From positions 2,137 to 66,136 of the forward strand of contig CALMEI010000063.1 of the NCBI GenBank assembly GCA_937863225.1: a stretch of 64,000 nt of DNA. The letters run 5' to 3'. The position numbers were made by a program, and so were the translations under genes. The stretch is from an uncultured Polaromonas sp. (lineage in GTDB: Bacteria > Pseudomonadota > Gammaproteobacteria > Burkholderiales > Burkholderiaceae_C). Numbering within the stretch: position 1 is the stretch's first letter; each line of letters opens with the position of its first letter. Shown here piece by piece: positions 9,043-32,729 of this stretch. The notes under the pieces are model-generated. The model was given only the letters and a program-made list of their open reading frames with translations. It ran no database searches and was not told the DNA's origin.

Positions 9043-11973
9043 ATGACAACTTCTACCTTGAACCATTCCCATGCAGCCAACCCTGTGGTGGCACCCATGC
9101 GCTTATCGGGCTTAGAGCCTGTGCGCATTGCTGAAGACACGCTGTTCGTCAATGTGGGCGAGCGCACCAATGTGACGGGTTCTAAAGCCTTTGCCCGCAT
9201 GATTTTGAATGGCGAGTATGAAGCCGCTTTGGCCGTTGCACGGCAACAGGTTGAAAACGGTGCACAAGTGATTGACGTGAACATGGATGAAGCCATGCTG
9301 GACAGCCAAGCAGCGATGGTGAAGTTTTTGAACTTGATGGCGTCAGAGCCTGATATTTCGCGCGTGCCGGTGATGATTGACAGCTCCAAATGGGAAGTGA
9401 TTGAAGCCGGACTGCGCTGCGTGCAAGGCAAGGGCATTGTCAACTCCATCAGCATGAAAGAGGGCGTAAACGAATTCAAGCGCCAAGCGCGTTTGGTCAA
9501 GCGTTATGGTGCTGCTGCTGTGGTGATGGCGTTTGACGAACAAGGCCAAGCTGATACCTACCAGCGCAAAATTGAAATTTGCGAACGTGCCTACCGCATC
9601 TTGGTGGATGAGGTCGACTTTGCGCCTGAAGACATTATTTTTGACCCCAACATTTTTGCCATTGCCACGGGTATTGACGAGCACAACAACTACGCCGTCG
9701 ACTTTATCAACGCCACGCGCTGGATCAAGCAAAACCTGCCGGGCGCTAAAGTGTCTGGTGGCGTCTCCAACGTGTCGTTCAGTTTTCGTGGCAACGATGC
9801 CGTACGCGAAGCGATACACACCGTGTTTTTGTACCACGCCATTGCCGCGGGCATGGACATGGGCATTGTCAACGCCGGCATGGTGGGGGTGTACGATGAC
9901 CTAGAGCCGGTGCTGCGTGAGCGCGTGGAAGATGTGGTGCTCAATCGCCGCGAAGATGCCGGTGAGCGGCTGATTGAAGTGGCCGAATCCGCCAAAGGCG
10001 CTGCCAAAGACGACAGCCAAAAACTGGCTTGGCGTGGCACTGAAGCAGCGCCCGCCACCGTTGGTGCACGCCTGAGCCACGCACTGGTGCACGGCATCAC
10101 GGACTTCATCACCGCCGACACCGAAGAAGCCTACCAAGCTGTGCTGGCCAAAGGTGGGCGTCCGTTGCATGTGATCGAAGGCCCGCTGATGGACGGCATG
10201 AACGTGGTGGGCGATCTGTTTGGTCAAGGCAAAATGTTTTTACCGCAAGTGGTGAAAAGCGCCCGCGTGATGAAACAAGCTGTGGCGCATTTGATTCCCT
10301 ACATCGAAGAAGAAAAGCGCCAGCAAGCTGCGGCGGGTCAAGACGTCAAAGCCAAAGGCAAAATCATCATCGCCACTGTCAAGGGTGATGTGCACGACAT
10401 TGGCAAAAACATTGTCACCGTGGTTTTGCAATGCAACAACTTTGAAGTGGTCAACATGGGCGTGATGGTGCCTTGCCACGAAATTTTGAAAGAAGCCAAA
10501 GCGCAAGGCGCAGACATCATTGGCTTGTCAGGTTTAATTACCCCCAGTTTAGAAGAGATGCAATACGTGGCGGCAGAAATGCAAAAAGACGACTATTTCC
10601 GTCTGCGCAAGATGCCCTTGCTAATTGGTGGCGCCACTTGTTCGCGGGTACACACCGCCGTCAAAATTGCGCCGCATTACGACGGGCCTGTGGTCTATGT
10701 GCCCGATGCATCGCGCAGTGTGGGCGTGGCGCAAAGTTTACTCAGCGACCAAGCCGACAAATACATCGCCGAATTGAATACCGACTATGACAAAGTGCGC
10801 AGCCAACACGCCAATAAAAAGCAAACGCCGCTGTGGCCCATTGCCCAAGCGCGCGCTAACAAGTGGCTACCACCCGTTCGCCCTGAGCTTGTCGAAGGGT
10901 TTAAGGCTTCGACAGGCTCAGCGCGAACGGAAATGGCGTGGTGCGATTTCATTCCCGCACAACCCAAATTCATTGGCCGCCGCGTATTTAAAAACTTTGA
11001 TTTGGCTGAAATAGCCAACTACATCGACTGGGGCCCGTTCTTCCAAACTTGGGACTTGGCCGGCCCCTACCCCGCCATATTGAGTGACGCCATTGTGGGC
11101 GCGGAGGCGACACGCGTGCTGGCGGACGGCAAAGCCATGCTCAAACGCATCATCGAAGGACGCTGGTTGCAGGCCAATGGCGTGATAGCGATTTACCCGG
11201 CCAACTCGGTGAACGACGACGACATCGAGATTTACACCGATGCGTCGCGCAGCCAAGTGGCCATGACTTGGTACGGCTTGCGCCAGCAGACGGAAAAGCA
11301 AACCATCGACGGCCCAAACGGCGAACAGATACAACGCCCCAGCCGCTGTTTGGCCGATTTTATTGCCCCTAAAATTACATCCAATGCCAGCAATGCTATA
11401 AATAATATAGCACATCAGGCAATAAATACGCCGGCTACAGCTCAAAAAGACCATATAAATTCAACAAAACAAGACCACATCGGCCTGTTTGCGGTCACCG
11501 CGGGCTTGGGGGCTGAGAAAAAAGAAAAAGCCTTTCAAGACAGCTTGGACGACTACAGCAGCATCCTGTTCAAAGCGCTGGCCGACCGCTTGGCTGAAGC
11601 GTTTGCTGAAATGTTGCACCAGCGCGTGCGTACCGATTTATGGGGCTATGCGCCGAATGAAAATCTGAGCGCCAAAGATTTAATCGACGAAAAATACCAA
11701 GGCATTCGTCCCGCACCGGGCTACCCCGCTTGCCCTGACCACAGCGTCAAAGCCGACATGTTCAAGCTGTTGCAGTGCGATGAAATTGGCATGGCGTTGA
11801 CGACAAGTTTGGCCATGACGCCCGCCGCCAGCGTGAGTGGTTTTTACATGGCGCACCCAGAAGCCACTTACTTCAACGTCGGCAAAATTGGCGACGACCA
11901 ATTGCAAGACATGCTGCAACGGCGTGGCATGGCGGAAAAAGACCTGTCCCGTTTGTTAGCGCCCAATCTGTAA
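9043..11973 (+). CDS. metH: cobalamin-dependent methionine synthase, pterin + B12 + AdoMet-activation modules only (no homocysteine-binding module)
   Basis: ATG at 9043 inside ORF 8947..11973. The protein begins at LSGLEPV...[12 protein letters not shown] (pterin domain). [10 protein letters not shown] is the B12 DxHxxG motif. [12 protein letters not shown] marks the activation domain. Confidence 0.95.
10876..10928. repeat. 53 bp imperfect palindrome inserted in frame in metH
   Basis: GTTCGCCCTGAGCTTGTCGAAGG (10876-10898) faces CTTCGACAGGCTCAGCGCGAAC (10907-10928). It encodes [19 protein letters not shown] in the Cob/activation linker, with no counterpart in E. coli MetH as I recall that sequence. 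Confidence 0.75.
11395..11460. repeat. dispersed 65-70 bp repeat family, copy inside metH (in frame)
   Basis: GCTATAAATAATATAGCACATCAGGCAATAAATACGCCGGCTACAGCTCAAAAAGACCATATAAAT matches the intergenic copies and encodes [22 protein letters not shown]. Confidence 0.8.
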
Positions 11974-12037
11974 GTGAGCCCATTAAGCGTCACGTTGTTA
12001 AGCGCAACTTTATCTGAGCTTGTTAAACTCGTGCACC

Positions 12038-31829: not shown

Positions 31830-31850
31830 CCGTGCACTTTGTAATTAGCT

Positions 31851-32729
31851 CTATAGCTTGGTGCTTAATTTAACGGGTGTGGCTTTGATGTCTTCATCGG
31901 GTTGGATACGCTCACTCATCCAGCGGGTTAAATCCAACCACATTTGCCGCATCTCAGAATCCAGCGGGGTGCGTTGCGCATTGGGTAACTCTATCGTTAC
32001 AACAGGGATGCGTTTGTGAATACCGCCGTAGTTGCCTAAGGAGCCTGGGTAAATTCCCACTTGGTCCAAATACAAACGCCCCAACTTACCGGGCGGAACG
32101 GTAGGACCGTCAAAATCTAAAACACCAAAAGGTGCGTGAATGCTGACAATCAGATTGGGTTTGAAGCGCTCCATCTGGGCGTGCAAAAATTTAGATTCTG
32201 GTTCAGACAAAGGGCCGGGGCCTGGCCAGCGCCGAGGGTCTTTTTTGGTACGTTGCTCCCAATAAATTTTGGCTTGCTTGTGCCAATTGGGCGTCGGGAA
32301 ATTGCGATTCAGATCGACGCCGTTCGCATTGACGCGTTTGCTTGGTTTGGCATACAAACCATCTGGATTGAGCAAAGGTATAAAGCGCCAATGCACTTCT
32401 ACAGGTGTTTGCTTTACCAAGCCAATCCAATGCATCGCAACCGATGTTGAAGACATTTCATCCCCATGGATGCCGCCAATGACGAGCACGCGCAACTTGG
32501 CATCGTCTGGCAGCACATCACGGGTCATGAGCGGAACGCCGTTGACGGAGCGCGCACCTGAGTCCAACAATTGAGTTTGCACACAGGTACTTTGCGACAC
32601 GCTGGGCAAGTGGCGTGTCAGGGTGTTGCAAAATTGATTTTTGTTGGCATCAATAGCGACTGAAGCTGGCGTATTTATTGCCTGAGTTGCTATTATTGCT
32701 ATAGCAAGCGCCTTGTGTATCAAATACAT
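31851..32729 (-). CDS. M14 zinc carboxypeptidase-family protein (murein peptide amidase MpaA-like)
   Basis: VIGGIHGDEMSS, LNPDG and GVDLNRNFP motifs. The N-terminus is built from a repeat copy. Confidence 0.75.
   Translation of the reverse strand: MYLIHKALAIAIIATQAINTPASVAIDANKNQFCNTLTRHLPSVSQSTCVQTQLLDSGARSVNGVPLMTRDVLPDDAKLRVLVIGGIHGDEMSSTSVAMHWIGLVKQTPVEVHWRFIPLLNPDGLYAKPSKRVNANGVDLNRNFPTPNWHKQAKIYWEQRTKKDPRRWPGPGPLSEPESKFLHAQMERFKPNLIVSIHAPFGVLDFDGPTVPPGKLGRLYLDQVGIYPGSLGNYGGIHKRIPVVTIELPNAQRTPLDSEMRQMWLDLTRWMSERIQPDEDIKATPVKLSTKL
32650..32705. repeat. dispersed 65-70 bp repeat family, copy forming codons about 9-27 of the M14 peptidase gene
   Basis: The plus strand reads ...GCTGGCGTATTTATTGCCTGAGTTGCTATTATTGCTATAGC. 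In gene sense this encodes AIAIIATQAINTPAS. Confidence 0.8.

What the first reader, a model, noticed from the sequence alone, without database searches (positions are those of the whole stretch)
11395..32705. Three coding-region copies of the repeat share orientation, reading frame and the same stop-removing substitutions
The copies lie in metH (11395), the MFS gene (29544) and the M14 peptidase gene (32650, minus strand). In each, the repeat is oriented the same way relative to the host gene and is read in the same frame. The peptides are [30 protein letters not shown] and AIAIIATQAINTPAS. Read in that frame, every intergenic copy carries an in-frame TAG (..GCA CTC TAG GCA..), and several also carry a TAA. 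All three coding copies have CAG at the TAG position. So only one of six possible frames is tolerated or selected, or a coding-competent subfamily exists. This parallels the in-frame Rickettsia palindromic elements, but here in a betaproteobacterial background.
Basis: partly seen in the sequence, partly recalled or inferred. Interest (0 to 1): 0.8.

Follow-up and report, generated by a model that had tools for sequence, protein, structure and literature searches.

The report
In-frame repeat copies inside bacterial genes
A short AT-rich repeat that litters the genomes of Polaromonas-like freshwater bacteria is also built, in frame, into many ordinary genes, mostly in two preferred reading frames and sometimes as an export signal; this is a new example of a phenomenon already known from Rickettsia and enterobacteria.

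Summary
The copies in metH, the MFS gene and the M14 (MpaA-like) gene share orientation and frame. All three have CAG where all seven intergenic copies in the window have TAG.

The repeat is about 75-90 nt and 33-40% GC. It is a high-copy family in low-GC Comamonadaceae. I found 198 copies in about 0.9 Mb of the window plus species-representative genomes.

About a quarter of these copies lie in genuine genes.
- One antisense frame (A1) has 14 copies and outnumbers S0 among copies my search pattern did not pre-select.
- A0 and S1 also occur.
- The window itself holds a verified antisense insertion in lipB and two weaker antisense candidates.

Frame use does not follow stop-codon availability, so selection on the encoded peptide is the best explanation. 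CAG is simply the commonest stop-free variant. It also occurs in intergenic copies, and AAG and GAG occur in coding copies. There is no separate coding subfamily.

The three copies are old and shared across a clade. The M14 copy forms the signal peptide. Verdict: a new member of a known kind (Rickettsia palindromic elements, enterobacterial RU elements).

The parts
11388..11458 (+). Sense-frame (S0) repeat copy inside metH (ORF 8947-11973). It encodes ..[23 protein letters not shown]..
   Evidence: nhmmer E=1e-15. It is a clean 25-aa insertion relative to E. coli MetH 1MSK. It is absent from 50 of 120 orthologues and present or decayed in 60.
29540..29610 (+). S0 repeat copy inside the MFS transporter gene (28626-29915). 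It encodes ..AIIIIASQATNTPPTDQFGNVF..
   Evidence: nhmmer E=3e-17. The AlphaFold model (pLDDT 82) places it at the end of helix 291-317 plus the following loop. It is present in 113 of 120 orthologues. The 7 most distant keep only the 5' half.
32644..32712 (-). S0 repeat copy at codons 8-22 of the M14 / MpaA-like peptidase gene (31851-32729, minus). It supplies the hydrophobic core and the AxA-like end of the signal peptide.
   Evidence: nhmmer E=6e-15. Many orthologues carry the same repeat peptide at the N-terminus, while distant orthologues have ordinary, unrelated signal peptides. The start codon agrees with the NCBI protein P0001.
2760..2819 (-). Antisense (frame A0) partial repeat copy inside lipB (about 2675-3403, plus). 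It encodes ..[12 protein letters not shown]..
   Evidence: nhmmer E=6e-7. It is a clean 12-aa insertion absent from E. coli LipB and from 34 representative homologues, the closest at 68% identity.
6533..6594 (+). Candidate antisense (frame A1) repeat-like stretch inside tldD (5434-7005, minus). It encodes ..[18 protein letters not shown]..
   Evidence: nhmmer E=1e-4. It aligns to E. coli TldD with only a 2-aa gap, so it is not a clean insertion. Uncertain.
1376..1430 (-). Candidate antisense (frame A1) repeat-like stretch inside a ResIII-type helicase ORF (6-2654, plus).
   Evidence: nhmmer E=5e-4. The host ORF has a Pfam ResIII hit. Not tested against orthologues.
16587..16660 (-). Intergenic copy that fills the 79-nt gap between convergent ORFs 15670-16584 (+) and 16664-17305 (-). 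It has TAG and TAA in frame S0.
18993..19066 (-). Intergenic copy with TAG and TAA in frame S0.
26381..26456 (+). Intergenic copy just downstream of the stop of ORF 26484-27200 (-). It has TAG in frame S0.
35624..35699 (+). Intergenic copy 10 nt from the stop of ORF 35709-37106 (-). It has TAG in frame S0.
40228..40302 (-). Intergenic copy, a divergent variant with TAG in frame S0.
51785..51859 (-). Intergenic copy 10 nt from the stop of ORF 51869-52717 (-). It has TAG in frame S0.
57532..57605 (-). Intergenic copy that fills the gap between convergent ORFs 56883-57530 (+) and 57604-58854 (-). It has TAG and TAA in frame S0.

Best explanation
The window comes from a low-GC Comamonadaceae (Burkholderiales) metagenome-assembled genome that carries a high-copy, AT-rich repeat of about 75-90 nt. 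The consensus is TTTGCTAT-N7-ATAGCA-nnTTAGGCAATAAATACGCCGGCTAGAG-CATATTT.., with a conserved GCTAT/ATAGC hairpin.

Most copies sit just downstream of stop codons. Copies that land inside genes survive only under three conditions: the frame in which they are read has no stop, the insertion keeps the host frame, and the encoded peptide is harmless or useful.

Two element frames give bland Ala/Ile/Asn/Thr-rich peptides and therefore dominate. The sense frame S0 gives [15 protein letters not shown]. The antisense frame A1 gives ..AGVxIAYxAIKNIA. Other frames are rare.

The TAG of frame S0 is already replaced (mostly by CAG, a single transition) in about 14% of intergenic copies. Stop-free donors therefore exist and no special subfamily is needed.

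The three copies in the finding are old, fixed insertions. One lies in a loop of the MetH activation domain. One lies at the end of a transmembrane helix plus the loop in the MFS protein. One has been taken over as the Sec-type signal peptide of the MpaA-like peptidase.

Shown: family membership, frames, host genes, insertion status and distribution. Inferred: selection on the peptide, signal-peptide function, and how the element spreads.
For: Family and taxon:
- The source is GCA_035329845.1.
- A pattern scan of GTDB species representatives returned 112 loci, mostly Polaromonas-like genomes of 48-55% GC.
- nhmmer found 198 non-redundant copies and none in reversed controls.

Coding copies:
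- 50 copies lie in ORFs of at least 200 aa with coding-like composition: S0 24, A1 14, S1 4, A0 4, S2 3, A2 1.
- At E<=1e-6 the counts are S0 19, A1 9, A0 3, S1 2.
- 46 of the 48 host ORFs scanned have Pfam domains, including ThiL, YggS, IlvA, PolA, DnaG, NuoG, PutA, KdtA, MsbA-like and MmeI.

Stops do not explain frame use:
- Frame A2 is open in 59% of intergenic copies yet almost never coding.
- S0 is open in 14% and A1 in 8.5%.
- Chi-square against that expectation gives p=4e-44.

No subfamily: only HMM positions 32 and 22 differ between S0 coding and intergenic copies.

Insertion status: MetH, LipB, M14, MFS tail.

N-terminal copies: most are in exported proteins and form an n-h-c leader in three frames, namely TctC, SLT_2, MpaA, SNase, PstS-like, TonB receptor and two SLT proteins.

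Intergenic copies: they are enriched at gene 3' ends, with convergent 21, tandem 32 and divergent 5.
Against: - The sample is therefore biased, favouring well-kept S0-type copies and disfavouring A1.
- Gene calls are ORF heuristics plus Pfam, not a full annotation.
- Some weak antisense hits may not be insertions. The tldD stretch shows no real length change against E. coli. TM6 of the MFS orthologues hits the model without any indel.
- For the MFS gene, no orthologue shows the state before insertion.
- Signal-peptide function rests on sequence logic only.
- No terminal inverted repeats were seen, target-site duplications were not tested, and no transposase was looked for, so mobility itself is inferred from copy number and patchy presence.
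Confidence: 0.8

Rival explanations
1. One reading: a single frame and orientation is the only one tolerated, or a dedicated coding-competent subfamily (marked by CAG) is what inserts into genes.
For: All three strong coding copies in the window are S0 with CAG. S0 is the commonest coding frame family-wide, and CAG is the commonest replacement at 17 of 24.
Against: - Copies in frames A1, A0 and S1 lie in Pfam-confirmed genes.
- The lipB antisense insertion in the same window is verified.
- AAG and GAG occur in S0 coding copies.
- CAG, AAG and GAG variants occur in intergenic copies.
- No other diagnostic positions separate coding from intergenic copies.
Confidence: 0.05
2. In-gene copies are kept similar to the consensus by a DNA- or RNA-level function, or by ongoing gene conversion or re-insertion. 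Under this view they are dual-purpose sequences rather than passively tolerated peptide insertions.
For: - Between orthologues, identical amino acids in the repeat segment use the same codon more often than in the rest of the gene. For MFS it is 50/65 against about 45%. For six other gene pairs it is 50/72 against 877/1679, Fisher p=0.005.
- The repeat peptide in MpaA and MFS orthologues is better conserved than is usual for a signal peptide or loop.
- TM6 of some MFS orthologues resembles the repeat without any indel.
- The hairpin stem is nearly invariant.
Against: - Samples are small, and the pairs are not phylogenetically independent.
- Copies were found by similarity to the consensus, which biases toward conserved ones.
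- The window's coding copies keep the family-wide AAATAC form rather than the CAATAC variant of this genome's own intergenic copies. This argues against recent local conversion.
- There is no covariation and only weak predicted folding.
Confidence: 0.2
3. The resemblance is mimicry. Ala/Ile-rich helices and signal peptides happen to look like the repeat, so the 'coding copies' are native protein segments.
For: - TM6 of the MFS orthologues and the tldD stretch hit the model without clear insertion.
- The AIIIIA part of the MFS copy aligns with a helix present in all homologues.
Against: - The strong copies match over 60-75 nt, including non-hydrophobic parts and synonymous positions (E 1e-15 to 1e-17).
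- MetH and LipB show clean insertions relative to orthologues.
- Hosts include many soluble enzymes.
- Reversed-sequence controls give no hits.
Confidence: 0.05

Closest known systems
Rickettsia palindromic elements (RPE; Ogata et al. 2000, as summarised in PMC10969869)
   Same: A short palindromic repeat present both between genes and in frame inside unrelated housekeeping genes. It encodes a conserved peptide, is tolerated in loops, and is shared among orthologues of related species.
   Different: - RPEs are about 100-150 bp and occur in obligate intracellular Alphaproteobacteria. This element is 75-90 nt, 33-40% GC, and occurs in free-living Comamonadaceae.
- Two frames in opposite orientations are commonly used here.
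- Intergenic copies carry a stop in the main frame.
- N-terminal copies serve as export leaders.
- Sequence relatedness to RPEs was not tested.
Enterobacterial repeat units RU-1 (ERIC), RU-2 and RU-3 found intragenically (Delihas 2007, PMC2759123)
   Same: Small intergenic repeats with open frames, fused into annotated genes. [quoted passage not shown]
   Different: - They occur in a different taxon and are longer (103-168 bp).
- Most enterobacterial hosts were small hypothetical ORFs. Here the hosts are mostly well-known enzymes and exported proteins, and the copies are conserved across genera.
BRE, the Betaproteobacterial repeat element (Hot et al. 2011, PMC3110155)
   Same: A repeat of about 90 bp in Bordetella and Comamonadaceae (29 copies in Polaromonas sp. 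JS666), mostly intergenic. The authors note that some copies lie entirely within coding sequences.
   Different: BRE is 69% GC and often tandem. The element here is about 33% GC over the consensus core and dispersed, so it is a different family. The GC-rich palindrome in metH at 10874-10930 is also GC-rich, but it was not compared with BRE.
REP/BIME elements and MITEs such as Correia/NEMIS of Neisseria
   Same: High copy number, small size, a hairpin, and placement at gene 3' ends with depletion from divergent promoter regions.
   Different: REPs are GC-rich palindromes of 20-40 nt. MITEs have terminal inverted repeats and target-site duplications. No terminal inverted repeats were seen here, and duplications were not established.

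Membership tests
In-frame intragenic palindromic repeats (RPE-like behaviour) | The same repeat occurs in intergenic DNA and inside unrelated protein-coding genes without breaking the reading frame. | tested here: met
   50 of 198 copies lie in ORFs of at least 200 aa. 46 of 48 scanned hosts have Pfam domains.
In-frame intragenic palindromic repeats (RPE-like behaviour) | The segment is an insertion relative to orthologues that lack it. | tested here: met
   MetH against 1MSK and 50 short-loop orthologues. LipB against 35 homologues. The M14 leader against distant orthologues. For MFS only the tail is shown to be an insertion. tldD is not shown.
In-frame intragenic palindromic repeats (RPE-like behaviour) | Non-random use of reading frame, giving a conserved peptide. 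| tested here: met
   S0 24, A1 14 and others 12; chi-square against uniform p=4e-9.
Rickettsia palindromic element families proper | Sequence homology to RPE-1 to RPE-10, in Rickettsiales genomes. | not tested
   No RPE sequences were on hand. The taxon, length and composition differ, so membership is not claimed.
MITE | Terminal inverted repeats. | tested here: not met
   The consensus of 104 intergenic copies has unrelated ends, and the only conserved inverted repeat is the internal GCTAT/ATAGC hairpin.
MITE | Target-site duplication and a related autonomous insertion sequence. | not tested
   No pairs of empty and filled sites from close strains were available, and no transposase search was done.
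REP | A GC-rich imperfect palindrome of 20-40 nt, extragenic, associated with a RAYT transposase. | tested here: not met
   The element is 75-90 nt and 33-41% GC. The 3'-end placement resembles REP. RAYT association was not testable.
BRE (Hot et al. 2011) | A unit of about 90 bp at about 69% GC, often in tandem arrays. | tested here: not met
   GC is 33-41% and copies are dispersed singly.
Known structured RNA families (Rfam 15) | A match to a curated covariance model. | tested here: not met
   No hit on the repeat at gathering threshold, nor at E<=1 on an intergenic copy.

The most novel reading that the evidence does not exclude
The repeat is more than tolerated junk. It acts as a reusable module that has repeatedly supplied Sec signal peptides and membrane-helix ends, in three different reading frames. 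Its in-gene copies remain under nucleotide-level constraint or are homogenised with the genomic family. If so, one sequence would serve both a DNA/RNA-level role and a protein-level role.
Probability: 0.2. Interest if true: 0.75.

Novelty: new member of a known kind. Interest (0 to 1): 0.5.

Why it matters
This shows that in-frame colonisation of genes by a small repeat, best known from Rickettsia, also happens on a large scale in free-living Betaproteobacteria. About a fifth to a quarter of detectable copies lie inside genes, including essential ones such as polA, dnaG, ilvA, thiL and metH.

It also gives a quantitative case that the encoded peptide, not stop-codon availability, decides which frames survive. 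Repeat-encoded export leaders recur in several well-known periplasmic and outer-membrane protein families, so the idea that repeats seed new signal peptides can be tested directly.

There is a practical point as well. These segments will confuse alignments, start-codon calls and repeat masking in Polaromonas- and Rhodoferax-like genomes.

Tried and rejected
- Rfam gave no family for the repeat, either at gathering threshold on the whole window or at E<=1 on one intergenic copy.
- Identity with the published BRE was rejected on composition and arrangement.
- RNA structure: only the 5-6 bp GCTAT/ATAGC hairpin recurs. Its stem is invariant without covariation, and folding z-scores are -0.7 to -2.7. 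No structured-RNA claim is made.
- The coding-competent subfamily idea was rejected, because only the stop position and one loop position differ.
- The shared AAATAC of the three coding copies looked at first like a shared derived change. It is the family-wide consensus, and the CAATAC of this genome's intergenic copies is the local variant.
- tldD as a clean insertion is not supported.
- The AlphaFold model of the MetH fragment was too poor (pLDDT 57) to say more than that the insert is low-confidence.
- The Polaromonas JS666 genome paper, cited as describing MITEs, could not be read.
- Literature searches found no description of this element.
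Full report
**1. Observation**

The ORFs translate to [15 protein letters not shown] in MetH (8947-11973), AIIIIASQATNTPPT in an MFS transporter (28626-29915) and AIAIIATQAINTPAS in an M14 peptidase (31851-32729, minus strand).

A repeat search and a profile built from ten window copies give ten strong copies, with nhmmer E from 1e-15 to 2e-21. 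The three coding copies are sense to their hosts and are read in one element frame, which I call S0.

All seven intergenic copies carry TAG where the coding copies have CAG. Three also carry TAA in the hairpin loop codon. Conceptual translation of the intergenic copies gives almost the same peptide, for example AIN*IAL*AINTPPTGQFFI.

**2.

The profile also finds three weaker copies, all inside ORFs and all antisense to the host:
- 2760-2819 in lipB (E=6e-7)
- 6533-6594 in tldD (E=1e-4)
- 1376-1430 in a ResIII helicase ORF (E=5e-4)

The lipB case is a clean 12-residue insertion ([12 protein letters not shown]). It is absent from E. coli LipB and from 34 representative homologues, the closest at 68% identity.

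The tldD stretch aligns to the E. coli TldD structure sequence with only a two-residue gap, so it is not shown to be an insertion. The helicase case could not be tested.

**3. The family**

The window comes from MAG GCA_035329845.1, named Burkholderiaceae bacterium. Most are "Polaromonas sp." MAGs of 48-55% GC, Ca. Aalborgiella aggregata and unnamed Comamonadaceae. There were a few chance hits in unrelated phyla.

nhmmer on these loci plus the window gives 198 non-redundant copies. It gives none on reversed sequence.

The family consensus is aaTTTGCTATAAATTTAATAGCAcTTTAGGCAATAAATACGCCGGCTAGAGgCaTATTT..TAAAt. It is about 75-90 nt, about 33% GC over the consensus core, and has no terminal inverted repeats.

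Only the GCTAT/ATAGC hairpin recurs in folds. Its stem is almost invariant and shows no covariation. Rfam has nothing for it.

Intergenic copies lie at gene 3' ends. The counts are 21 between convergent genes, 32 between tandem genes and 5 between divergent genes. In tandem gaps there is no orientation bias, and the median distance is 23 nt after the stop. Two window copies fill the whole gap between convergent genes.

**4. Frame census**

I anchored each copy on the T of the TAG (HMM position 32) and recorded the frame of any spanning ORF. I then required at least 200 aa and coding-like GC1/GC2. Fifty of 198 copies are coding:

| Frame | Copies |
|---|---|
| S0 | 24 |
| A1 | 14 |
| S1 | 4 |
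| A0 | 4 |
| S2 | 3 |
| A2 | 1 |

At E<=1e-6 the counts are S0 19, A1 9, A0 3 and S1 2.

Pfam confirms 46 of the 48 host ORFs scanned. The hosts include ThiL (twice), YggS (twice), IlvA (twice), PolA, DnaG (twice, S1), NuoG, PutA, a MsbA-like ABC protein (twice, A1), KdtA, a heptosyltransferase, MgsA, HrpA, CoaBC, MmeI, TctC, cytochrome c, SLT and others.

My search pattern demands T at position 31, which frame A1 must lose. Among copies not selected by the pattern, A1 (13) outnumbers S0 (7). The honest summary is that two frames, one per orientation, are favoured, two more occur at lower frequency, and S2 and A2 rest on weak hits only.

**5. Why these frames**

In 117 intergenic-like copies, the stops per frame are as follows:

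| Frame | Mean stops per copy | Copies open |
|---|---|---|
| S0 | 1.02 | 14% |
| S1 | 1.12 | 24% |
| A1 | 1.06 | 8.5% |
| A2 | 0.44 | 59% |
| S2 | 2.6 | none |
| A0 | 2.5 | none |

If stop availability decided the outcome, A2 would dominate. It is almost never coding (chi-square p=4e-44).

The consensus peptides explain the difference:
- S0: AINLIAL(Q)AINTPAR
- A1: LAGVFIA(Y)SAIKFI
- A2: SSRRIYCLKCY.IYS
- S1: YKFNSTLGNKYAG

Selection on the peptide is therefore the best explanation. This step is inferred.

**6. The CAG**

S0 coding copies have CAG 17, AAG 5 and GAG 2. Intergenic copies have TAG 91, CAG 14, AAG 7, TAA 4 and GAG 1. Several CAG copies are plainly intergenic or form only the last codons of a gene.

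Position by position, S0 coding copies differ from intergenic ones only at position 32 and at loop position 22. The AAATAC shared by the three window coding copies is the family consensus. CAATAC is the local variant of this genome's intergenic copies.

There is therefore no coding subfamily. CAG is the commonest stop-free variant, one transition away from TAG.

**7. Age and place of the three copies**

*MetH.* The C-terminal fragment aligns to E. coli 1MSK in two blocks, leaving 25 residues ([25 protein letters not shown]) unmatched. Among 120 orthologues the loop between CLADFVAPK and DYIGxFAVTAG varies in length:
- 8 residues or fewer in 50 orthologues
- 9-19 residues in 10 orthologues
- 20 residues or more in 60 orthologues, with graded decay of the repeat peptide

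The AlphaFold model was poor (pLDDT 57). The insert scored below 50.

*M14.* The protein is MpaA-like. Many orthologues of 65-78% identity start with the same repeat peptide, for example [18 protein letters not shown]. Others have decayed forms such as LFIAPHAYSTPAC. Distant orthologues have ordinary leaders such as LLVSAAAHAAAP. The repeat therefore supplies the hydrophobic core and AxA-like end of the signal peptide. This is inferred from sequence.

*MFS.* 113 of 120 orthologues carry the segment at the same place. The seven most distant keep LAIIIIAxxxLSTWA without the tail, and their DNA still shows GCTAT-N7-ATAGC..GAGGCA. A good model (pLDDT 82, pTM 0.84) places residues 306-317 at the end of helix 291-317. 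A loop and a short helix follow, with lower confidence.

**8. Export leaders**

Most N-terminal copies lie in exported proteins and make a leader with charged, hydrophobic and cleavage regions. They do so in three frames:
- S0: TctC, SLT_2, MpaA and SNase. A truncated cytochrome c ORF carries an N-proximal copy that does not make a readable leader.
- A1: a PstS-like protein and a TonB-dependent receptor
- A0: two SLT proteins

A few N-proximal copies are not in obvious exported proteins (DUF2063, TatD, Ku, PhoH-PIN). Delihas (PMC2759123) predicted something similar for enterobacterial RU-2, so the idea is not new. The recurrence here is unusually clear.

**9. An unexplained extra**

Between orthologues, identical residues inside the repeat use the same codon more often than elsewhere. 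For MFS it is 50/65 against about 45%. For six other gene pairs it is 50/72 against 877/1679, Fisher p=0.005.

TM6 of some MFS orthologues also hits the repeat model in antisense without any indel. This could mean nucleotide-level constraint, conversion, repeated insertion or ascertainment bias. I rate the dual-function reading at about 0.2.

**10. Comparison and verdict**

The behaviour matches Rickettsia palindromic elements and enterobacterial intragenic repeat units (PMC10969869, PMC2759123). The published Betaproteobacterial BRE is a different, GC-rich and often tandem family.

The element lacks MITE-type terminal repeats and is unlike REPs in size and composition. I found no description of it.

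It is a new member of a known kind. The one-frame and special-substitution readings do not.

Noticed in passing
window 8896-8999: An SAH riboswitch (RF01057, 53.7 bits) lies directly upstream of metH. The mechanical ORF start (GTG at 8947) lies inside it, so the true start is probably the ATG of MTTSTLNH at about 9040.
   Followed up: partly
window 10874-10930 (inside metH): A second, different repeat is embedded in frame in the same gene. It is a GC-rich palindrome encoding ..[21 protein letters not shown].., with related copies in L022, L088 and L101. It was not compared with the published BRE.
   Followed up: partly
L116 6528-6582, L117 6504-6573, L118 6503-6573: In MFS orthologues the DNA of transmembrane helix 6 (GWRGIFVALGAMTFIAILA) matches the repeat model in antisense (E=5e-8 in L116). 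There is no length difference from orthologues that do not match. This could be conversion by a repeat copy or mimicry.
   Followed up: partly
proteins P0027, P0031, P0035, P0040-P0042 (MpaA orthologues): The annotated N-termini run through yet another repeat-like peptide (..FASFAQLLRLSRS.., ..SFAPSAKPLRLLHP..) upstream of the decayed leader. These are probably over-extended start calls through a further repeat family.
   Followed up: no
window 54068-54153 and 56192-56277: An 86-nt direct repeat at 86% identity, 2.1 kb apart. It appears to cover the 3' ends of two neighbouring genes, possibly paralogues.
   Followed up: no
L012, L055, L070, L080, L084, L087, L089, L095, L096, L111 (Acidovorax, Xylophilus, Giesbergeria, Ottowia, Rhodoferax; 60-72% GC): High-GC relatives match only the first 30 nt or so (GCTAT-N7-ATAGCA-nnTCAGGCAG). 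This hints at a wider superfamily of Comamonadaceae repeats sharing this hairpin, or at chance pattern hits.
   Followed up: no
L023 5305, L016 1054, L085 7794, L095 945: Some stop-free copies sit at the very end of ORFs, so the repeat seems to supply the last 10-17 codons and the stop codon of the host gene.
   Followed up: no
L118 11998-13353: Tn7-like TnsA/TnsB genes lie next to the conserved MFS-PTS neighbourhood in one Polaromonas MAG.
   Followed up: no
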